A stretch of 43,841 bases of DNA, taken from Candidatus Peregrinibacteria bacterium. Its GTDB lineage: Bacteria; Patescibacteriota; Gracilibacteria; UM-FILTER-43-11. Location of the stretch: NCBI GenBank assembly GCA_030618315.1, contig JAUXDO010000001.1:1-43841 (forward strand), read 5' to 3'. Positions 12,663-38,738 of this stretch are shown here, one piece after another. The notes below the pieces were generated by a model. The model saw only the letters and a program-made list of their open reading frames with translations, ran no database searches and was not told the DNA's origin. Both the position numbers and the translations under genes were made by a program. Within the stretch, counting starts at the first letter, position 1, and every line of letters starts with the position of its first letter.

Positions 12663-12962
12663 ATGGGATTCATGGATAAGGCCAAGGATATGTACAAATT
12701 GCAAAAACAGGCCAAACAAATTAAAAAGGAGCTAAAGAGTATACATGTTGAGGCTGAAAGCGACGGTGTAACTGTTATCTGTAATGGTGAACAGTACTTT
12801 TTAGAATGCAAGGTCGCTGAGGGAATTCTTGGCGATGAAAAAAGAATATGCAAAGGCTTTGTCGAAGCGGCAAATAAGGCTGTTAAAAAGTCACAGACCA
12901 TTGGCGCCGAGAAGATGAAGGATGTTATGGGAGGATTTGGGGGAATGTTTGGCGAGGCTTAA
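12663..12962 (+). CDS. ybaB: YbaB/EbfC-family nucleoid-associated protein
   Basis: About 100 aa with KLQKQAKQIKKEL... and a C-terminal GGMFG tail typical of YbaB. I prefer the ATG at 12663 over the track's TTG at 12657. Confidence 0.8.
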   Translation: MGFMDKAKDMYKLQKQAKQIKKELKSIHVEAESDGVTVICNGEQYFLECKVAEGILGDEKRICKGFVEAANKAVKKSQTIGAEKMKDVMGGFGGMFGEA

Positions 12963-12979
12963 GCCTCTGGAACCTTTAA

Positions 12980-12994
12980 TCCCGCTAAGCGGGA
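12980..12994. repeat. 15-nt palindrome TCCCGC-TAA-GCGGGA, copy
   Basis: The same 15-mer occurs at 13059-13073 and 35629-35643. A loop variant (TTA) occurs at 35458-35472. Confidence 0.85.
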
Positions 12995-13058
12995 CCAGTA
13001 CCTCCAAAATATCTGTTCTCACTCTTCTCTTCCTCGCCTAACTCCGCAAGCTTCCTTC

Positions 13059-13073
13059 TCCCGCTAAGCGGGA
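13059..13073. repeat. 15-nt palindrome TCCCGC-TAA-GCGGGA, copy
   Basis: Exact copy. The extended match ctcccgctaagcgggat is shared with the tRNA-Gly fragment at 35627-35644. Confidence 0.85.
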
Positions 13074-13140
13074 TCAGGGTCTTGCTACGTACTGGCCTCG
13101 GAAGTTCATCGTTCGGTTATTTTATATTGTTAGCAGTTAC

Positions 13141-17175: not shown

Positions 17176-19806
17176 ATGCTGAAAAAATTATCAAAACTTA
17201 TATTCGGAGATTACAATGAAAAAGAGCTTAAAAAGAAGAAGCCAATAGTAGCACAAATCAATGAGAAGGAACAGGAATACCAATCGCTTACTGATGATGA
17301 ACTTAAAGCTAAAACCCCTGAATTTATCGAACGAATTGAAAAAGGTGAAACTACTGATGATATTTTAGTAGAGGCATACGCAGTGGTAAAAAATGCGTGT
17401 AGACGTCTTGTTGGAACAAAGTTTATGTCAGGAAAAGACGAAAAGGAGTGGGATATGATTCCTTATGACTGCCAGCTTGTCGGTGGAATAATGCTCCACG
17501 AGGGGAAGATATCAGAAATGAAAACAGGTGAAGGTAAAACACTTGTTGCCTGTTTGCCGATGTATTTAAATGCGCTTGCCAAAAAAGGTGCACATCTTGT
17601 AACAGTAAATGATTATCTTGCACAGCGTGATGCGGAATGGATGAGTGTTGTCTATGAATATCTTGGACTTTCCGTCGGTGTTATAATCCACGACTTAACA
17701 CCTGACCAAAGAAGAGAAGCTTACTCCGCGGATATTACTTACGGAACAAATAATGAATTTGGTTTTGATTATCTTCGTGACAATATGGCAACTTCGCTGG
17801 AGGCTCGTGTTCAACGTGATTATTATTACGCGATTGTGGATGAGGTGGATTCAATTTTAATTGATGAAGCCAGAACTCCTCTAATTATCTCTGCACCTGC
17901 TGAAGAATCAACTTCTAAATATTATCAGTATTCGCAACTGATCAATCAGTTAAAACTCAACGCCGACTATGCAATCGATGAAAAAGCAAGGGCTGTTACT
18001 CTTACTGAAGATGGTATAGCAAAAATGGAACAGCTTCTTGGTGTTGAAAATATTTATACCGATGCGGGATTTATGGAAGTCCATCACATTGAGCAAGCAC
18101 TTAAAGCCCATGCAATTTTTCAGAAAGATACAGATTACCTTGTAAAAGATGGTGAAATCGTAATTGTAGATGAATTTACAGGTCGTTTAATGGCCGGAAG
18201 ACGTTATGGCGACGGACTGCATCAGGCCATAGAAGCCAAGGAAGGTGTTGAAGTAAAACGCGAGAGCAGAACGCTTGCAACAATTACTTTCCAGAATTAT
18301 TTCAGATTATTTAAGAAGCTTTCCGGTATGACTGGTACCGCAAAAACTGAGGAAGAGGAATTCTATAAAATTTATGGTCTTGAAACCATTGTAATTCCTA
18401 CAAATCAGCCGATTTGCCGTGATGACAAATCCGATCAGATATTCAAAAATACTAAAGGTAAATGGCAGGCGGTTGTGGATGCCATTAAGGAATATAACGA
18501 AAAAGGCCAACCAGTCTTAGTCGGTACAATCTCTGTTGAAACATCCGAGATGCTCTCCAAAATGCTAAAGATGACAGGAATCAAACATGAAGTTTTGAAT
18601 GCCAAACATCACGAACGTGAAGCTGAAATCGTATCGCTCGCTGGCCAAAAAGGTGCTGTTACCATAGCCACTAACATGGCTGGTCGTGGTACGGATATTA
18701 AACTCGGTGAAGGTGTTACAGATCTTGGCGGGCTCGCAATAATCGGTACAGAAAGACATGATTCCCGTCGTATCGATAATCAGCTAAGAGGTAGATCCGG
18801 ACGTCAGGGTGACCCAGGTGCCAGTCGTTTTTATATTTCGATGGACGATGAACTTATGCGCCTATTCGGTTCCGATAAAATCAAGGCGATGATGGATAGA
18901 CTCGGACTGCCTGATGATATGCCAATCGAAAATATAATTATCTCGAGAAGTATTGAATCCGCTCAAAAAAGAGTTGAGGGTAATAACTTTGATATTCGTA
19001 AACATCTTCTGGAATACGATGATGTGATGAATAAACATCGTGAAATTATCTATTCAAGACGTTTAAAAACACTAAAAAGTGATGATTTAAAGGAAGATAT
19101 TCTTGAATTAATGGCAGATGAAGCCAGAAATATCACCCTTTTTCATACATCAACCTCAAATAGAGCCGAGTGGGATTTTTCTTCGATCGCCGATGCGATT
19201 AACGCAATACTCCCCCATCAGGATAAGAAAATCGATTCATCCGATATTGAAAAGCTGGATACTGCAGATGAAATCATTGAGAATCTTACAAATATTTTAC
19301 ATAATGAATATAAGATAAAAGAGGAATCTCTTCCCGAAGCAAAAATGCTCCGTGATGTTGAAAAACGTGTATATCTGCATATAATCGACAGTCTTTGGAT
19401 GGAGCATATCGACAGCATGACTCAATTACGCGAAACCGTTTCCCTTCGTGGTTACGGTCAGCGTGATCCATTAATGGAATACAAACAGGAGGCTTTTCAG
19501 AAACTTAAAAAGCTTCTGGATGCCATACAGCACAATACAATCAATACCCTATTTAAGGTTGCTATTAAAATTGAGGAGCCTATTTCCAATAAAGCAGTAG
19601 CTCCTAAAAATATGCAGACAAATAAGGATGCTATCGAGGGCAATATCTCCGGACCAAAATTCCGTGCTCGTCCAGCTACTGCCGAATCTGCCGTCGCTCA
19701 GAGGATTTCTGCTGATGCACCACAAAAATCAAATGTTCCTGTGGTTGGGCGGAATGAGCCGTGTCCTTGTGGGAGTGGGAAGAAATATAAGAAGTGTTGT
19801 GGGTGA
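17176..19806 (+). CDS. secA: Preprotein translocase ATPase SecA
   Basis: 876 aa. Walker [37 protein letters not shown], and the C-terminal zinc motif [14 protein letters not shown]. Confidence 0.97.
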
Positions 19807-19830: not shown

Positions 19831-20322
19831 ATGAAAAATAATAAAGAAATCTTTAGGAGTACACTTATATGGTTAATGTTTTCATTTCCCTTTGGCTACC
19901 TAGTAGGTGTAATTCTTGTAACCTTAATATTTATACCTAGCATGATAGAAGCTAGTGCAGTGGCGGGATTAGCAGAGTCTATGTTCGGTTTAGCTATAAT
20001 GTATAAAACAGGGTTCGTATTTAGTCTTGGATTATTCGTCGCAATGGCACCAATATTTTTATTGATAACTAATTTCTGGTTAAGAATCTCAAGGAAAAGA
20101 AAAAGCCTTGATAAGTCGTGGATTTACATTGTATTGCTTACTCTTTTAATCGGTATTATAAGCGCATTTACCTTGAATACTATAATGAATACTATAACTG
20201 GCTTTAGCTCCAATTATCAGCCAATATCCATAATATCCATTACTGGATTTTTTGGAGGATGGTTCGGCACACTTCTGCCAAGAATATTTATAAAAAAACT
20301 TAGGCCGGGTAAACTGTGCTAA
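19831..20322 (+). CDS. Hypothetical multi-pass membrane protein
   Basis: 163 aa with about four hydrophobic helices and no recognised motif. Confidence 0.5.
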   Translation: MKNNKEIFRSTLIWLMFSFPFGYLVGVILVTLIFIPSMIEASAVAGLAESMFGLAIMYKTGFVFSLGLFVAMAPIFLLITNFWLRISRKRKSLDKSWIYIVLLTLLIGIISAFTLNTIMNTITGFSSNYQPISIISITGFFGGWFGTLLPRIFIKKLRPGKLC

Positions 20323-20347
20323 GATAATAAAAATTAAACATAAAATC

Positions 20348-20536
20348 ATGAAAAAACACATAATAATCGTAGATCTTCTGTTGATATTAGTATTTTTATT
20401 AATTCTATTATCAAAATTGATTGTCTTACCATTCGCAAAGGTCATCCAGCCGATTTTCTTTGTTCTTTTGGTCACACATATTATTCAGCACTGGAAGATT
20501 ATTGTTTTTATGTTTAAGAATTTGTGGAAGAAATAA
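20348..20536 (+). CDS. Hypothetical small membrane protein
   Basis: 62 aa with two hydrophobic segments. Weak support only. Confidence 0.35.
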   Translation: MKKHIIIVDLLLILVFLLILLSKLIVLPFAKVIQPIFFVLLVTHIIQHWKIIVFMFKNLWKK

Positions 20537-20559
20537 GTGTTACGTAATCCCCCACCCTA

Positions 20560-23172
20560 TTAAATTTTATTATTATTGTTTTCTATATTCCGCCGGAAAT
20601 ATTTCACCATTTCCATATAGACGAGATTAAGAGAGGCGGCACCTATGCAAATCAGCCAATCTGTAAGTTTTAGAGGAACAAGCTCGAAGATGGCCTGAGT
20701 TGTCGGCTGATACATCACAAATAGTGTAATTCCCAAAATCAAAAGAACCGCAGTCATCAAAAAGCGATTGTTAAACACCCCTGTAACCGCAATCGATTCA
20801 CGAAGAGAGCGGAAGTTGTATGTACCTACGATTACCATAATCACAATAGTCGTAAATACCATTGTACGCGCCATTTCAATGTTTGTAACAGGATCTTGTG
20901 TAATAAAAACAATCAAGGCAATAAGTGCACTAAAAATTGCGATACTGAATACGATAAACGCGTTCCATCTGTTCATGACAGCTTCGTCCGGCGGACGCGG
21001 AGGACGGGACATCAGATCTCCGTGAGCCTTGTCGAGTCCTAATCCGATTGCCGGCATCTGTTCATCAAAGGCATTAATAAATAATATCTGGAGAGCCAGC
21101 AGCGGCAGAAGTTTAAAATCAAATAACAGAATACCAAGAAAGATCAGAATCACTTCCGTGAAGTTTCTGGAAATAAGATAGGATGAGAATTTTTCTATAT
21201 TCTGGTAAATCCGCCGGCCTTCTTTTACTGCTCCGACGATAGTCACAAAGTTGTCATCCTGCAGTACCATATCAGCGGCCTCTTTTGTCACATCAGTTCC
21301 TTTAACACCCATTGCAATGCCAATATCAGCTTTTTTTAAGGCTGGCGCGTCATTCACACCATCACCTGTCATAGCTACGATTTCACCATCTTTTTTTAAG
21401 AGGCTGACGATACGAAGTTTATGTTCGGGTTTGGTGCGGGCAAAAATTTTAATTTCTCTTAGTTTTTGGCGTAATTCTTTATCACTCAGTTCATCAATAG
21501 CCTTACCTGTCATCGCTTTGGCTTCTCCGCCTGCTATAAGCCCTATTTGTCTGGCAATCGAAATAGCAGTATGTTCATTGTCACCTGTAATCATCATCAC
21601 TTTAATACCTGCACGTTTACATGTTTCCAGAGCCTCTTTTACTTCCGGCCTGGCCGGGTCACGCATGGCAACAAGGCCTAAAAATATTAAGTCTTTTTCA
21701 ATGTCCTTTGTGGGAATTTTTTTTGTATCATACATTTTTGTGGCAAGTGCGAGCACGCGTAATCCTTTTCTGGCAAAATTGTGATTTTGTTTTAGGATCG
21801 CGTCTTTATCTTTTGAAGTCAGCTTGTGGTGTTTCCCGTTTAAAAGCTGATGACTACAGCGTTCTAATATTTCTTCCGGTGCTCCTTTGTTGTAAATCAC
21901 AAATCCCCCCTCGCTCTTATGAATGGTTGTCATCATTTTACGACTTGAAGAAAACAGTATTTCTTCCACGCGCTTAAGCTTTTCTTCCAGATTTTCTTTT
22001 TTGAAACCGGCTTTTCTGCCAAGTGTTATAAGGGCCACTTCCGTTGGATCACCAATCGGCTCCCAAAAATTATGATCAGACTCAAATAAATCTGAATTAT
22101 TGCAAAGAACACCTGCTTTAAAAATCTCATTCCATTTTGAAAAACTTTTTATCTCTTTATCATTTAGCTGGAAAATACCTTTTGGTTTATATCCGACGCC
22201 CGTAATAGAAATGATCTGATTATTCACAAATAATTTTTGTACTGTCATTTCATTTTTAGTGAGCGTTCCTGTTTTATCGGTACAAATGACGGTAGTACTG
22301 CCAAGCGTTTCTACAGCCATCATTCTGCGCATTATAGCGTTTTTTTTCGCCATTTTATACATACCAAACGAAAGCGCGATAGTCATAGTAAGCGGTAAGC
22401 CTTCCGGTACAGATGCAACCGCTAAAGCTAACGCTACAATCAGCATTTCTGCCATCGAAGCACCACGGATAATTCCGATAATCAAAATCATAACGGAGGC
22501 TGTGATTGCAATCATAGCCAATAACTTTCCAAGTCTGCTCATGCGTTTTTGAAGCGGTGTAGGCTCCTCTACTTCCTGAATCATAGTAGCGATATCACCA
22601 AGTTTTGTTTTCATCCCGGTTGCTGTTATGCGTGCCTGGCAGCGTCCGCTTACAATCTGTGTCCCGGCATAAATTAAATCTCCATTTTCTCTGTGTACTG
22701 AAATACTTTCGCCGGTCAGCATCGATTCGTCGACTTCGACACCTGTACTATGTATTAATTCCGCGTCAGCCGGAACACGATCACCGACTTCTAGTGACAG
22801 TATGTCTTCAGGAACCACATCCTTGGCATCGATTATCATCAAACGCCCGTCTCGGATAACAGTCGTTTTAGGCCGGACTATCTGCCGAAGAGCTTCCATT
22901 GCACGTTCAGCTTTATATTCCTGAATAAAACCCATCAAAATCACAAATACAATGATGAAATTAATCACCCAGAAGTTTATTACTTCACCTATTCCATAGG
23001 AAATAAGTGATGCGACTATCAGAATCCATACAATCACATCTACAAACTGCCGTAAAAAAACTTTTAATACAGTAAATTTTCGTTTAACCCTGATCTCATT
23101 CAATCCAAATTTTTCAAGCGCCTTAACTGCCTGTTCGCTGGTAAGACCTATAATTTTCTTTGAAATAGTCAT
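20560..23172 (-). CDS. P-type cation-transporting ATPase (type II, Ca2+/Mg2+-ATPase-like)
   Basis: 870 aa. TGES actuator motif, the phosphorylation site CTDKTGTLT, TGDN, and the GDGVNDAPALKKADIGIAMG hinge. Confidence 0.9.
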   Translation of the reverse strand: MTISKKIIGLTSEQAVKALEKFGLNEIRVKRKFTVLKVFLRQFVDVIVWILIVASLISYGIGEVINFWVINFIIVFVILMGFIQEYKAERAMEALRQIVRPKTTVIRDGRLMIIDAKDVVPEDILSLEVGDRVPADAELIHSTGVEVDESMLTGESISVHRENGDLIYAGTQIVSGRCQARITATGMKTKLGDIATMIQEVEEPTPLQKRMSRLGKLLAMIAITASVMILIIGIIRGASMAEMLIVALALAVASVPEGLPLTMTIALSFGMYKMAKKNAIMRRMMAVETLGSTTVICTDKTGTLTKNEMTVQKLFVNNQIISITGVGYKPKGIFQLNDKEIKSFSKWNEIFKAGVLCNNSDLFESDHNFWEPIGDPTEVALITLGRKAGFKKENLEEKLKRVEEILFSSSRKMMTTIHKSEGGFVIYNKGAPEEILERCSHQLLNGKHHKLTSKDKDAILKQNHNFARKGLRVLALATKMYDTKKIPTKDIEKDLIFLGLVAMRDPARPEVKEALETCKRAGIKVMMITGDNEHTAISIARQIGLIAGGEAKAMTGKAIDELSDKELRQKLREIKIFARTKPEHKLRIVSLLKKDGEIVAMTGDGVNDAPALKKADIGIAMGVKGTDVTKEAADMVLQDDNFVTIVGAVKEGRRIYQNIEKFSSYLISRNFTEVILIFLGILLFDFKLLPLLALQILFINAFDEQMPAIGLGLDKAHGDLMSRPPRPPDEAVMNRWNAFIVFSIAIFSALIALIVFITQDPVTNIEMARTMVFTTIVIMVIVGTYNFRSLRESIAVTGVFNNRFLMTAVLLILGITLFVMYQPTTQAIFELVPLKLTDWLICIGAASLNLVYMEMVKYFRRNIENNNNKI

Positions 23173-23412
23173 TTTATTTTATTTTTTAATATCAACAACA
23201 ACAATATTATATGAGAAAATTAATTAATAAGCCAACATGCTTTGCGTCAATCCCCTATTTTTAAATAGGATAGGGTATTTTGATAAATACTGACTATTGC
23301 TGAATATTAGACTGATGAACCTTTTTAAAGGCTTGAATGAATTGTTCTAAATGAGGTAATTTAAAAAATGGAGATTACTTTATCTAATTTCCTTTTTTTG
23401 TCAAATATATAT

Positions 23413-23441
23413 TTGACTTTCGTTCTAACTTATGTTATACT
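23413..23441 (+). promoter_or_regulatory. Near-consensus sigma70-type promoter with extended -10
   Basis: TTGACT (23413-23418), a 17-nt spacer ending in TGT, then TATACT (23436-23441). Confidence 0.55.
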
Positions 23442-23447
23442 ATCTTC

Positions 23448-23670
23448 CTTCAACCGAGAGGACCGGGTAATCAATACTAATTATTGATGGGCACAATTAT
23501 GGATTGGCGGGCGTATAGCTTAGCCTTGACCGATTGTGATCTGAAACCGGACGACCTCTCTGGAATTGGCACTTTGTGTCGATAGGTGAGCTGAGGATCG
23601 GTGGGCGTATAGCCCGACCGTGACAGACGCAAAAGGGGGAAAAGTTGTTCTGCAACATCCCCTATTTTTT
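23448..23670 (+). ncRNA. Candidate structured small RNA of unknown class (about 220 nt)
   Basis: A GC-rich island in an AT-rich gap, bracketed by the promoter at 23413-23441 and a terminator at 23634-23670. Stems: gagagg/cctctc (23456-61 / 23555-60), ccgg/ccgg (23463-66 / 23547-50), tcaata/tattga. Two similar modules contain gggcgtatagc (23509-19, 23603-13). Confidence 0.45.
23634..23670 (+). terminator. Rho-independent terminator
   Basis: The stem aggggg...ccccct encloses gttg-ttctg-caac and is followed by ATTTTTT (23664-23670). Confidence 0.6.
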
Positions 23671-23680
23671 ATATGTGGAT

Positions 23681-23709
23681 TTGACTTAAAAACGAATCTT
23701 TGCGAAAAT
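23681..23709 (+). promoter_or_regulatory. Putative hrcA promoter
   Basis: TTGACT (23681-86), a 17-nt spacer, then GAAAAT (23704-09). Confidence 0.35.
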
Positions 23710-23712
23710 CAA

Positions 23713-23739
23713 TTAGCACTCACCCACTTAATCTGCTAA
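23713..23739 (+). promoter_or_regulatory. CIRCE-like operator with a degenerate right half
   Basis: TTAGCACTC-acccactta-ATCTGCTAA compared with the consensus TTAGCACTC-N9-GAGTGCTAA. The left half is perfect and the right half matches 6 of 9. It abuts the hrcA ATG. Confidence 0.45.
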
Positions 23740-24446
23740 TGGATTTACGAAAGCAACAAATACTGGAGGCGATAATCGATTCTTTTATAAAGAATGCATT
23801 GCCTGTTGGCTCAAAATATATTCGTGAGTCGTATGATTTCGGTGTATCCCCTGCTACGATAAGGAATGAGATGGCTGCGCTGGAAGCTGAGGGATATATT
23901 GCTCAGCCACATACATCTGCCGGGCGCGTCCCGACTAACAGAGCTTATCGAATGCTTGTTGACCAGATGCAGATTCAGAATCAATTAATGAATCGTGTTA
24001 AACGTGATATGGAAACGGTTCGTAAACAATATTATTTAAAAAAAACTAAAGAAAAGCTATTTGATATTGTCGCAATACTCGCAGGAGTTACAAATAACAT
24101 CAGTTTTGCTACCTTGCCGGATAAAGACAGGGTATTTTATATCGGAATAAGCAATCTGCTAAAAAAACCTGAGTTTATTATGGAGCCGGAAAAGGCTTCT
24201 CAGGTAATTGAGATTCTTGAAAATGACTTATATGGCATTTTATCCGATTTGGAGTTAACGGATGAAGGTACTATTTATATCGGTGAAGAAAATATACTTC
24301 CTGAGTTCCAAAGCTGTAGTCTGCTTGCAATCCCCTATCAGTTAAACGGATTCAGAGGCATTATCGGGGTTCTTGGCTCTACGAGAATGGATTATCCGTA
24401 TAATCTTGCTGCGATTAGGACTGCTATTCAACTATTATCGGATTGA
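23739..24446 (+). CDS. hrcA: Heat-inducible transcription repressor HrcA (short form)
   Basis: MDLRKQQILEAIIDSFIKNALPVGSK...ATIRNEMAALEAEGYI..PHTSAGRVPT... and a C-terminal GVLGSTRMDYPYN. I prefer the ATG at 23739 over the track's TTG at 23700. Confidence 0.85.
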   Translation: MDLRKQQILEAIIDSFIKNALPVGSKYIRESYDFGVSPATIRNEMAALEAEGYIAQPHTSAGRVPTNRAYRMLVDQMQIQNQLMNRVKRDMETVRKQYYLKKTKEKLFDIVAILAGVTNNISFATLPDKDRVFYIGISNLLKKPEFIMEPEKASQVIEILENDLYGILSDLELTDEGTIYIGEENILPEFQSCSLLAIPYQLNGFRGIIGVLGSTRMDYPYNLAAIRTAIQLLSD

Positions 24447-24448
24447 GG

Positions 24449-24568
24449 AACGGATAGGTAAACGGATAGGTAAACGGATAGGTAAACGAATTGAAGAACG
24501 TATAGGAAAACGGATAGAAAAACAATTCGTCCAACAATACGTCCATCAATTAGTCCAACAATACGAAT
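24449..24568. repeat. Ten tandem 12-nt units filling the hrcA-ruvC gap
   Basis: aacggataggta occurs 3 times perfectly (24449-24484). Then come aacgaattgaag, aacgtataggaa and aacggatagaaa. The unit type then switches to aacaattcgtcc, aacaatacgtcc, atcaattagtcc and aacaatacgaat. The array ends 1 nt before the ruvC ATG. Confidence 0.8.
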
Positions 24569-24569
24569 T

Positions 24570-25076
24570 ATGAATTATTATTTAGGAATAGATCCAGGGC
24601 TCTCCGAAGTCGGTTTCGGCATTATTAAGTCTGATGGTAATGAGACTGAATTTGTTGACTGTGGGATTATTAAAACTACTCCTAAAAATACTTTTGCCGA
24701 GAGATTATCGATTATTAAAAAGGATATGGAGGAAATTCTTGCTATGCATAAATACGAAGCTGTTGGAATTGAGGAATTGTTTTTCGCAAAAAATGTTACC
24801 AATGCTATCAAGGTTGCTCATGCACGAGGAATAATCGTGCAGACGGTTCACGATTTACGATTTCCGATTTACGAGTTTACTCCATTGCAGGTCAAAAATA
24901 ATATCTGCGGTTATGGCGGAGCGGATAAATTGATGGTGCAGGAGATGGTTAAACGGCTCCTTAATCTAAAAGTCCTGCCAAAGCCTCATGATGCGGCGGA
25001 TGCGCTTGCGATTGCGATGATAGCTGCCCAAACTCAAAACTCAAAACTCAAAACTCTAAACCCAAAATATACCTAA
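24570..25076 (+). CDS. ruvC: Holliday junction resolvase RuvC
   Basis: LGIDPG at the N-terminus, EELFF, and the HDAADALAIA catalytic C-terminal motif. The last roughly 14 aa are encoded by a repeat arm. Confidence 0.9.
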   Translation: MNYYLGIDPGLSEVGFGIIKSDGNETEFVDCGIIKTTPKNTFAERLSIIKKDMEEILAMHKYEAVGIEELFFAKNVTNAIKVAHARGIIVQTVHDLRFPIYEFTPLQVKNNICGYGGADKLMVQEMVKRLLNLKVLPKPHDAADALAIAMIAAQTQNSKLKTLNPKYT

Positions 25077-35504: not shown

Positions 35505-35579
35505 GCGGGTATCGTATAATGGCTATTACCACGGCCTTCCAAGCCGTTGATAGGGGTTCGATCCCCCTTACCCGCTCCA
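35505..35579 (+). tRNA. tRNA-Gly (anticodon UCC), CCA encoded
   Basis: Manual cloverleaf. Acceptor gcgggta/tacccgc, anticodon stem acggc/gccgt with loop cuUCCaa, T arm agggg-ttcgatc-cccct, discriminator U, then CCA. Confidence 0.85.
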
Positions 35580-38026: not shown

Positions 38027-38060
38027 ACCATATCACTTGATATATGTCAAGTGATATGGT
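38027..38060. promoter_or_regulatory. Perfect 14-bp inverted repeat in a divergent gap (operator-like)
   Basis: accatatcacttga-tatatg-tcaagtgatatggt. Both flanking track ORFs 'start' at GTG inside the arms and so both read MIWY. Confidence 0.5.
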
Positions 38061-38363
38061 ACAATTGCGAGATAAAACAATTTTTATTCAACAAAGCACT
38101 TAGGGCACTTTTAATAACAAACGGCATGATTTTGATTGCCACAGCTATGCTTGGATCAATATATGCATTATTTGTTGAGAAGATCGGCGGTGATTCGCTC
38201 GACGCAAGTATTGCCGGTGCTATATTTGCCTTAACTGCCGGTTTTGTAACGAGGGCTAATCGTTACAAGATTTGGATTCGACGCGATCTTTATTATCATG
38301 GCCGCACTTAGTTATATAAGTGCTTCTTATCTTCTTTTACTATCACCAAAAAAAGTACTTTAA
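38051..38363 (+). pseudogene. MFS-transporter remnant (N-terminal and C-terminal pieces joined out of frame)
   Basis: Frame A reads ...FNKALRALLITNGMILIATAMLGSIYALFVEKIGGDSLDASIAGAIFALTAGFVT, like MFS TM1-TM2. The +1 frame from 38250 reads RGLIVTRFGFDAIFIIMAALSYISASYLLLLSPKKVL, like a final MFS helix, up to the stop at 38361-38363. The roughly 300 aa between them are absent. Confidence 0.45.
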
Positions 38364-38422
38364 ATTGACTTTTATATAAAATATTGGAATAATGATGTCT
38401 AATATTTTTTTAATGCCCCTCC

Positions 38423-38698
38423 GTGTTTTTTAATTCATCCTCAAAATCCTCTATTGATGAACTTATTTGGTATTACAAACAAAATGAAACTATTTTTCAG
38501 GATACAATAAATTGCTGTTCACACAATGAATTAAAAAATCTTAGATGTGCAATTGCTAAACAGATTAGACGTTTGTCAGCTTCCATAAAAAAAGGGCTGA
38601 AATCAAAAGATTGCGTTGATCAATATACACAGCTTACAACACTAAAAAAAATCAGAGCTAAGATAAAAATCAGACTAGATATGGAATCAAGTGATTGA
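38423..38698 (+). CDS. Hypothetical protein
   Basis: 91-aa ORF with a GTG start and no recognised motif. Weak support. Confidence 0.3.
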   Translation: MFFNSSSKSSIDELIWYYKQNETIFQDTINCCSHNELKNLRCAIAKQIRRLSASIKKGLKSKDCVDQYTQLTTLKKIRAKIKIRLDMESSD

Positions 38699-38738
38699 TA
38701 ATAATCAATAATATTTAATAATTTATTACTTTACTTTT

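What the first reader, a model, noticed from the sequence alone, without database searches (positions are those of the whole stretch)
23413..23670. Candidate novel structured sRNA with its own promoter and terminator, upstream of hrcA
A GC-rich island sits in a 527-nt AT-rich gap. It is preceded by TTGACT-17-TGtTATACT and closed by a stem followed by a U-tract. The downstream hrcA has its own TTGACT promoter and CIRCE-like site, so this looks like an independent transcript rather than a leader. By hand, a multi-helix fold emerges. GAGAGG-A-CCGG pairs with CCGG-ACGA-CCUCUC, enclosing the hairpin UCAAUA/UAUUGA and a CACA...AUUGG / CCGAU-UGUG stem. Two similar modules are present, GGAU(U/C)GG(C/U)GGGCGUAUAGC...GACCG...UGA, at 23501-23539 and 23595-23623. 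Each forms a GGGC-GUAUA-GCCC-type hairpin. GGGCGUAUAGC resembles the start of a tRNA (acceptor plus D stem), but there is no T-arm or 3' acceptor strand. I could not match it from memory to SRP, RNase P, tmRNA or 6S RNA, or to common riboswitch cores.
Basis: partly seen in the sequence, partly recalled or inferred. Interest (0 to 1): 0.65.

Follow-up and report, generated by a model that had tools for sequence, protein, structure and literature searches.

The report
Orphan candidate small RNA gene
A GC-rich stretch of about 220 bases upstream of hrcA in a Peregrinibacteria genome has the signals of a self-contained small RNA gene and matches no known RNA family, but no relative carries it, so its function cannot be tested by comparison.

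Summary
A GC-rich island (0.52-0.55 GC in a 0.37 GC window) is preceded by TTGACT-17-TGtTATACT. One hairpin exists only on the + strand. Rfam 15 gives no match, even at E<=10, and ARAGORN finds no tRNA.

The flanking genes both have their own promoters, conserved in relatives: hrcA (with CIRCE) and the divergent P-type ATPase. The element is therefore neither gene's leader.

I found no homologue. Relatives with 85-95% identical HrcA or 84-86% identical ATPase lack it. Pattern scans of the genome, metagenome and viral collections found nothing, nor did BLAST of phage and plasmid records or a covariance model run on the held loci. The segment lies in a strain-variable spot and is bracketed by a 13-nt exact direct repeat. 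No covariation test is possible.

Best reading: a strain-specific small RNA cassette that acts in trans (confidence about 0.42). Main rival: a non-functional recombination remnant, possibly with tRNA-Ile 5' fragments. Interest is modest.

The parts
23448..23670 (+). Predicted transcript of about 220 nt. The start is inferred 7 nt after the -10 box and the end lies in the U-tract.
   Evidence: Promoter. Fold -74.6 kcal/mol, z -2.6 to -2.7 on +, -1.2 to -1.3 on -. No Rfam match. The start and end are inferred, not measured.
23413..23441 (+). Sigma-70-type promoter with an extended -10 box: TTGACT-17-TGtTATACT.
   Evidence: 10/12 plus TG. It is one of only four TG-bearing strong matches in the window.
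23400..23417 (.). 18-nt perfect palindrome GTCAAATATATATTTGAC overlapping the -35 box. It could be an operator; that is inferred.
   Evidence: Self-match. It is unique in the window at 0 mismatches.
23454..23563 (+). 5' domain: closing helices CCGAGAGG/CCUCUC.GG and CCGG/CCGG around the hairpin AUCAAUA-CUAAU-UAUUGAU and a long arm that carries module 1.
Evidence: Minimum-energy fold -35.5 kcal/mol, z = -2.8 on + and -2.3 on -.
23505..23526 (+). Module 1 hairpin: (U)GGC-GGGC-GUAUA-GCUU-A-GCC(U).
23565..23584 (+). Hairpin AUUGGCAC-UUU-GUGUCGAU with two G-U pairs. It forms only on the + strand.
   Evidence: z = -4.7 on +, +0.5 on -.
23599..23620 (+). Module 2 hairpin: CGGU-GGGC-GUAUA-GCCC-G-ACCG.
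   Evidence: Compared with module 1 there is one compensatory change (C-G to U-A) and two G-C to G-U changes.
23635..23670 (+). Intrinsic terminator: interrupted GC-rich hairpin followed by A and UUUUUU.
   Evidence: -13.7 kcal/mol, z = -3.0. Listed by my own scan.
23250..23262 (+). Left copy of the 13-nt exact direct repeat ATCCCCTATTTTT. It is part of a + strand hairpin plus T-run at 23253-23285.
   Evidence: A repeat of 13 nt or more occurs in 24 of 2000 shuffles of the gap.
23657..23669 (+). Right copy of ATCCCCTATTTTT. It forms the 3' half of the RNA terminator.
23362..23400 (.). A7-hairpin-U7 element that resembles a bidirectional terminator, just upstream of the RNA promoter.
   Evidence: Fold. 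It was picked up as a meaningless 'mir-1252' hairpin.
23681..23739 (+). hrcA's own promoter (TTGACT-17-TGcGAAAAT, 23681-23709) and CIRCE-like operator (23713-23739). Not part of the RNA.
   Evidence: Conserved in 10 relatives.
23206..23235 (-). The P-type ATPase's own promoter, TTGGCT-18-TATAAT, about 35 nt before ATG 23172. Not part of the RNA.
   Evidence: The equivalent promoter is in L113 and L163-L166, and homology ends about 50-65 nt upstream of the ATG.

Best explanation
This is a strain-specific ('orphan') small RNA gene cassette.

**What the sequence shows.**
- A strong sigma-70 promoter with an extended -10 box would start transcription near 23448.
- The RNA of about 220 nt folds into four parts: a 110-nt multi-helix 5' domain, a short G-U-containing hairpin, a second copy of a GGGC-GUAUA-GCYY hairpin, and an intrinsic terminator ending at about 23670.
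- The cassette sits between the separate, conserved promoters of the ATPase and hrcA.
- It is bracketed by a 13-nt direct repeat and preceded by a terminator-like hairpin.

**What I infer, without a test.**
- The cassette was probably inserted or duplicated into a variable spot.
- The RNA acts in trans.
- The most likely route is the two near-identical pentaloop hairpins. Their loops fit G-N-R-N-A, as in boxB-type loops, and they may bind a protein or make tertiary contacts.
- Base-pairing with an mRNA is the alternative route.
For: - Promoter, terminator and GC island.
- Strand-specific folding, including a G-U-dependent hairpin.
- No coding signal: codon-usage log-likelihood ratios of -0.29 to 0.00 per codon, against a real-gene 5th percentile of 0.06. 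No Pfam match. No real protein homologue among 1.84 billion representatives.
- Both neighbours keep their own conserved promoters.
- All seven differences between the two hairpin copies are compatible with the hairpin. One is a C-G to U-A double change.
- The island GC (0.51) exceeds the coding GC of this genome (0.38) and resembles that of the tRNA gene (0.56).
- A 13-nt direct repeat brackets the unit.
- An independent Logan assembly reproduces 23395-24942 exactly.
Against: - No homologue was found, so there is no conservation or covariation:
  - relatives with 85-95% identical HrcA;
  - relatives with 84-86% identical ATPase;
  - covariance model R1 on the window plus 72 loci;
  - pattern scans of GTDB genomes, JGI metagenomes and IMG/VR;
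  - phage and plasmid BLAST.
- The folding z-score is only about -2.7.
- The paralogue comparison has two sequences and no statistical power.
- There are no expression data.
- The collection scans were exact-match patterns. Diverged homologues could have been missed.
Confidence: 0.42

Rival explanations
1. It is a non-functional recombination remnant. The segment is debris left at a rearrangement junction in a strain-variable spot. It may derive from partial copies of a tRNA-Ile leader plus 5' end, a kind of duplication common in CPR genomes. Its promoter and terminator are relics or chance matches, and any transcript has no selected function.
For: - The region between the 62-aa ORF (20348-20536) and the hrcA promoter differs in every relative. 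L108 has a KilA-N gene plus a 204-aa gene, L110 has an HTH gene plus a 270-aa gene, and L112 has one small ORF.
- The element is absent from all relatives.
- GGGCGTATAGC (14 of 15 nt in module 1) equals the tRNA-Ile 5' end. Tandem copies of 'leader plus tRNA 5' part' at 92-119-nt spacing occur in many CPR loci. The spacing here is 94 nt.
- A direct repeat brackets the unit.
Against: - The near-consensus promoter and a good terminator sit exactly at the two ends of the island.
- There is no residual tRNA similarity beyond 15 nt. No T-arm is present, and the tRNA model gives nothing at E<=10.
- The differences between the two hairpin copies preserve pairing.
- No relative's tRNA locus carries the GGATYGGY leader.
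Confidence: 0.3
2. It is a cis-acting leader or attenuator of hrcA. Transcription from the strong upstream promoter reads into hrcA unless the terminator forms, under control of a ligand, temperature or a protein.
For: - Same strand as hrcA.
- The terminator ends 10 nt before the hrcA -35 box.
- A structured 5' domain is followed by a terminator.
Against: - hrcA has its own promoter and CIRCE, conserved in relatives that have no such leader.
- On inspection I found no alternative antiterminator pairing with the terminator arms.
- No riboswitch or T-box model matches.
Confidence: 0.07
3. It is a divergent or reduced member of a known housekeeping RNA (RNase P, 6S, a tRNA-like or Y-like RNA) that the Rfam models miss.
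For: - GAGAGGACCGGG and GAAACCGGAC faintly recall the two strands of RNase P helix P4 (my recollection only, not a test).
- The tRNA-like 11-mer.
Against: - No hit to any RNase P, 6S, tRNA, tmRNA, SRP or Y-RNA model, even at E<=10 on 241 nt.
- The length and fold do not fit: there is no end-to-end closing stem with a central bubble.
- An essential RNA would be conserved, yet model R1 finds nothing in the held loci. Whole relative genomes could not be scanned.
Confidence: 0.05
4. It is protein-coding or a gene remnant: either a small ORF (for example + 23487-23585, 32 aa, or + 23368-23487, a 39-aa hydrophobic peptide of type I toxin style) or a decayed foreign coding sequence.
For: - Genes in this genome often lack a Shine-Dalgarno sequence.
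- The 39-aa ORF is hydrophobic with a charged tail.
- The - strand is open in all three frames.
Against: - Codon-usage scores fall in the non-coding range for every candidate ORF.
- No Pfam match.
- No tblastx match to any held locus.
- The 63-aa stop-free frame hits only a low-complexity repeat protein.
- The 39-aa ORF contains the terminator-like hairpin and the promoter.
- AT-rich DNA yields hydrophobic ORFs by default.
Confidence: 0.06
5. It is a minus-strand 5' leader or riboswitch of the P-type cation ATPase.
For: - The island lies upstream of the divergent ATPase gene.
- Metal-sensing riboswitches often precede P-type ATPases (established knowledge).
Against: - The ATPase promoter is 35 nt from its ATG and is conserved. 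Homology with five relatives ends 50-65 nt upstream, and none has the element.
- The - strand folds worse, and one hairpin vanishes there.
- No M-box, yybP-ykoY, NiCo or other model matches on either strand.
Confidence: 0.03

Closest known systems
Independently transcribed bacterial sRNA genes (sigma-70 promoter, structured body, intrinsic terminator), many of them strain-specific and island-borne
   Same: The promoter, a structured body of about 220 nt and a terminator are all present. It lies in the intergenic space between divergent genes, in a strain-variable region. No coding signal.
   Different: No expression evidence, no homologues, no identified target or chaperone. The body is more structured and more GC-rich than a typical base-pairing sRNA.
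boxB-type hairpins of lambdoid nut sites and rRNA leaders (G-N-R-N-A pentaloops bound by arginine-rich peptides)
   Same: Two short GC-closed hairpins whose 5-nt loop GUAUA fits G-N-R-N-A. They occur as a pair in one transcript.
   Different: No boxA. No N-like protein or phage context was found. The resemblance is at loop-pattern level, from memory only, and was not tested.
Partial tRNA-Ile/Val 5'-end duplications upstream of tRNA genes in CPR genomes (seen here in L018, L021, L038, L039, L044, L056, L061, L071, L083)
   Same: The same 11-15-nt start (GGGCGUAUAGCU.AG), repeated in tandem at a spacing of about 92-119 nt (94 nt here).
   Different: Those copies include the real leader and sit directly before an intact tRNA. 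Here there is no tRNA, the flanks differ, and the sequence folds back into its own hairpin.
GC-rich intergenic structured RNAs found by GC-IGR screening in AT-rich genomes (PMC8632094)
   Same: The same discovery logic: an island of GC content in a long AT-rich intergenic region.
   Different: Those candidates are accepted only with covariation across homologues. None is available here.

Membership tests
Any Rfam 15 family | Covariance-model score at or above the gathering threshold | tested here: not met
   The whole window gives only tRNA-Gly at 35505. The 651-nt scan gives only noise, E 0.45-4.9, outside or on the edges of the island. The 241-nt scan gives zero hits at E<=10.
tRNA / tRNA-like | Cloverleaf with a T-arm and a 3' acceptor strand | tested here: not met
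   ARAGORN finds none. RF00005 gives no hit at E<=10. Only the first 11-15 nt resemble tRNA-Ile.
Riboswitch / cis leader of hrcA | The downstream gene depends on the leader's promoter, and the association is conserved | tested here: not met
   hrcA has its own conserved promoter and CIRCE. Relatives at 85-95% identity lack the element.
Riboswitch / leader of the P-type ATPase (- strand) | Lies between the promoter and the start codon, and is conserved with the gene | tested here: not met
   The promoter is 35 nt from the ATG. The element lies upstream of it and is absent from five relatives.
RNase P RNA | Conserved P4 and CR-I to CR-V core; match to the bacterial, archaeal or type-T models | tested here: not met
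   No RNase P model hit at E<=10. Only a faint recalled resemblance of two short strings.
6S RNA | Long end-to-end helix with a large central bubble | tested here: not met
   The minimum-energy and centroid folds are multi-branched, and the 5' end pairs at nt 103-112 of the transcript. No RF00013 hit.
T-box | Stem I specifier and the conserved T-box sequence forming an antiterminator | tested here: not met
   No RF00230 hit. UGGC/CGGU before the hairpins is only a 4-nt resemblance.
Bacterial trans-acting sRNA gene (generic kind) | Own promoter and intrinsic terminator | tested here: met
   (sequence-level prediction only).
Bacterial trans-acting sRNA gene (generic kind) | A discrete transcript is detected | not testable with these tools
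   No expression data are available.
Structured non-coding RNA (comparative standard) | Homologues with compensatory base changes | tested here: inconclusive
   No homologues found. The only evidence is a two-copy internal comparison with one compensatory pair and no statistical power.
Type I toxin-antitoxin | A conserved small hydrophobic ORF with an overlapping antisense RNA | tested here: inconclusive
   The 39-aa hydrophobic ORF 23368-23487 has non-coding codon usage, and a terminator-like hairpin and the promoter lie inside it. No homologues to test.

The most novel reading that the evidence does not exclude
It is the first sampled member of a new class of structured RNA in Peregrinibacteria/CPR. 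Its twin hairpins copy the 5' end of tRNA-Ile (GGGCGUAUAGC) and act as decoys or binding sites for a tRNA- or RNA-binding factor. The cassette moves as a small unit bounded by the repeat ATCCCCTATTTTT.
Probability: 0.08. Interest if true: 0.6.

Novelty: new member of a known kind. Interest (0 to 1): 0.3.

Why it matters
Almost nothing is known about regulatory RNAs in CPR bacteria. A validated, independently transcribed structured RNA there would be a useful entry point, and a tRNA-end-mimicking pair of hairpins would be unusual. As it stands, this is a single-genome candidate. Its main value is as a well-delimited target, with strand and coordinates given, for metatranscriptome mapping and a full homology search. 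It also illustrates that GC-island logic alone cannot separate a functional RNA from junction debris.

Tried and rejected
- **Rfam.** Gathering threshold on the whole window, then E<=10 on 651 nt and on 241 nt: nothing.
- **tRNA/tmRNA.** None in the region.
- **Synteny with hrcA.** I fetched 15 GTDB loci and 5 closer contigs (91-95% identity). All have the hrcA promoter and CIRCE, and none has the element.
- **Synteny with the ATPase.** I fetched 48 GTDB loci and 4 closer contigs (85-86% identity). None has the element.
- **DNA pattern scans.**
  - GGGCGTATAGC twice: only tandem tRNAs and tRNA 5' duplications.
  - GGATYGGYGGGCGTATAGC in genomes, metagenomes and viral contigs: only chance hits in high-GC coding sequence.
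  - Three further patterns in viral contigs: nothing or chance hits.
- **Phage and plasmid BLAST.** No match.
- **Covariance model R1.** Only the self-match, in the window plus 72 loci.
- **Other copies in the window.** None.
- **Coding or pseudogene.** tblastx, Pfam, codon usage and a search of 1.84 billion protein representatives were all negative. The one hit, P0241, is a low-complexity repeat protein.
- **The 92%-conserved stretch at 20317-20549.** I suspected an RNA gene or att site. It is a conserved 62-aa membrane ORF.
- **A 9-nt repeat ATTTGACTT around the unit.** I considered it a target-site duplication. I rejected that because ATTTGAC is simply the local -35 context in relatives too.
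- **Target prediction with RNAduplex.** The duplexes were meaningless and I dropped it.
- **Literature.** No paper on Peregrinibacteria small RNAs in the library.
- **My own labelling error.** I provisionally called the genes after hrcA 'grpE/dnaK'. They are ruvC and a TPR protein.

Full report
**Setting.**
- The window is a chromosomal stretch of a Peregrinibacteria (CPR/Patescibacteria) genome. The nearest HrcA and ATPase homologues all come from such MAGs.
- Around the finding lie, in order:
  - secA (17176-19806, +);
  - a 163-aa ORF;
  - a conserved 62-aa membrane ORF (20348-20536, +);
  - a P-type cation ATPase (20560-23172, -);
  - the gap;
  - hrcA (ATG 23739-24446, +; Pfam HrcA);
  - ruvC and a TPR protein.
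- hrcA starts at ATG 23739, giving the 235 aa of all its homologues. The gap is therefore 566 nt, not 527.

- GC rises to 0.46-0.54 across 23450-23650, against 0.20-0.29 in the flanks. The whole window is 0.37 and coding sequence is 0.38. The island is the third-highest 150-nt GC peak in the window.
- TTGACT-17-TGtTATACT lies at 23413-23441. Matches of this quality are rare: 15 in 87.7 kb of both strands, four of them with TG. Most lie in front of genes.
- The island ends in an interrupted hairpin at 23635-23663, followed by A and UUUUUU (-13.7 kcal/mol, z = -3.0).
- Folding is better than in shuffles on the + strand (z -2.6 to -2.7) and less so on the - strand (z -1.2 to -1.3).
- The hairpin at 23565-23584 uses two G-U pairs. 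It therefore exists only on the + strand: z = -4.7 against +0.5.
- The two modules are a true internal repeat: 33 nt, 76% identity, 94 nt apart.
- Each module is a hairpin with a lower stem, the upper stem GGGC/GCYY, the loop GUAUA and a bulged purine on the 3' side.
- All seven differences between the two hairpins keep them intact, including one C-G to U-A double change. Two sequences give no statistical power, however.

**It is not a leader of either neighbour.**
- Upstream of hrcA, ten relatives share the block TTGAC(N)-17-TGCGAAAAT followed by TTAGCACT-N-CTGCTAATG. Their similarity to the window begins at about the -35 box.
- Upstream of the ATPase, five relatives share a promoter about 35 nt before the ATG. 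Similarity ends 50-65 nt upstream.
- About 440 nt (23240-23680) therefore belongs to neither gene.

**It is an orphan in a variable spot.**
- Contigs whose HrcA is 91-95% identical (L108-L112) carry the conserved 62-aa ORF and then different genes, or only about 300 nt, before hrcA. They have no ATPase there and nothing like the RNA.
- ATPase genes that are 84-86% identical sit in other contexts and also lack it. L110 and L164 come from one sample, and neither locus has it.
- A covariance model of the 179-nt core found only itself in the window and 72 related loci.
- Exact-pattern scans returned only tRNA arrays or chance hits in high-GC coding sequence. They covered 185,579 species genomes, the JGI metagenomes and IMG/VR.
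- Phage and plasmid records have no match.
- An independent Logan contig reproduces 23395-24942 exactly, so the RNA-hrcA junction is not an assembly artefact of one contig.
- The unit is bracketed by a 13-nt exact direct repeat, ATCCCCTATTTTT (23250-23262 and 23657-23669). A repeat of 13 nt or more occurs in 24 of 2000 shuffles of the gap.
- An A7-hairpin-U7 element at 23362-23400 sits just before the promoter.
- Taken together, this looks like a small self-contained cassette. That reading is inferred.

**It is not coding.**
- Every small ORF in the island scores in the non-coding range for this genome's codon usage. The log-likelihood ratios are -0.29 to 0.00 per codon, against a real-gene mean of 0.34 and 5th percentile of 0.06.
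- None has a Pfam match.
- tblastx against all held loci is empty.
- The longest stop-free frame (63 aa) matched only a low-complexity repeat protein among 1.84 billion representatives.

**Comparison with known families.**
- No Rfam family matches at any threshold. This covers tRNA, tmRNA, RNase P, 6S, SRP, T-box and the metal riboswitches that often precede P-type ATPases.
- The 11-mer GGGCGUAUAGC is the 5' end of CPR tRNA-Ile and tRNA-Val. Module 1 matches tRNA-Ile at 14 of its first 15 nt.
- Following this up showed that many CPR genomes carry tandem partial copies of 'leader plus tRNA 5' part' directly upstream of the intact tRNA, at 92-119-nt spacing. The 94-nt spacing here is similar.
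- That makes a tRNA-locus remnant a serious rival. Against it, nothing beyond 15 nt resembles a tRNA, no tRNA follows, and the flanks differ.
- The loop GUAUA fits the G-N-R-N-A pattern of boxB-type pentaloops. This is my recollection of that family and a lead, not a test.

**Verdict.**
- The anatomy is what one expects of an independently transcribed, structured small RNA, and the rival readings as leader or coding sequence are disfavoured.
- The claim of a functional structured RNA rests on a single sequence.
- I put about 0.42 on a functional trans-acting RNA cassette and about 0.30 on non-functional junction or tRNA-fragment debris. The rest is spread over the minor rivals.
- It is a new member of a known kind (an orphan sRNA candidate), of modest interest until expression or homologues are shown.

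Noticed in passing
window 28467-28720: A 254-nt GC-rich spacer (0.52 overall, up to 0.65) lies between rplA (L1) and the dUTPase gene. It contains the tandem repeat GTGGGGCTGTTTGAGTACAAACGTAGGGCT (two copies) and a long imperfect inverted repeat. Folding z is -7.7 on the - strand and -7.2 on the + strand. No Rfam match. It is a stronger structure signal than the finding itself.
   Followed up: partly
window 12960-13100: A C-rich (+ strand) intergenic stretch holds two identical hairpins, TCCCGCTAAGCGGGA, about 75 nt apart, upstream of the yceG-like gene. It is one of the top GC peaks in the window.
   Followed up: no
L018, L021, L038, L039, L044, L056, L061, L071, L083 (positions): In Saccharibacteria, Parcubacteria, Falkowbacteria, Moranbacteria and Gottesmanbacteria MAGs, the tRNA-Ile or tRNA-Val gene is preceded by one to five tandem partial copies of its own leader plus 5' part. 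L039, L061 and L083 share an architecture of the tRNA 5' end followed by two 6-bp triloop hairpins, with compensatory differences between genomes. This could be a mobile mini-element or a tRNA-like RNA.
   Followed up: partly
window 20550-23710 compared with L108-L112: The space between the conserved 62-aa membrane ORF and the hrcA promoter is a strain-variable slot. It holds the ATPase plus this element here, a KilA-N gene plus a 204-aa gene in L108/L109, an HTH gene plus a 270-aa gene in L110, and one extra small ORF in L112.
   Followed up: partly
window 23713-23741 and relatives L001-L013: In this lineage the hrcA start codon lies inside the right arm of the CIRCE-like operator (…CTGCTAATG). 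HrcA is short (235 aa), and hrcA is followed by ruvC and a TPR gene rather than grpE-dnaK.
   Followed up: partly
window 23400-23417: The 18-nt perfect palindrome GTCAAATATATATTTGAC supplies TTGAC -35 boxes on both strands. It is unique in the window and could be an operator.
   Followed up: partly
window 38037-38738: A 702-nt gap holds three strong promoter-like sites on the + strand (38037, 38365, 38695; the first two with TG), terminator-like hairpins and a local GC rise to 0.50. It may hold other small transcription units.
   Followed up: no
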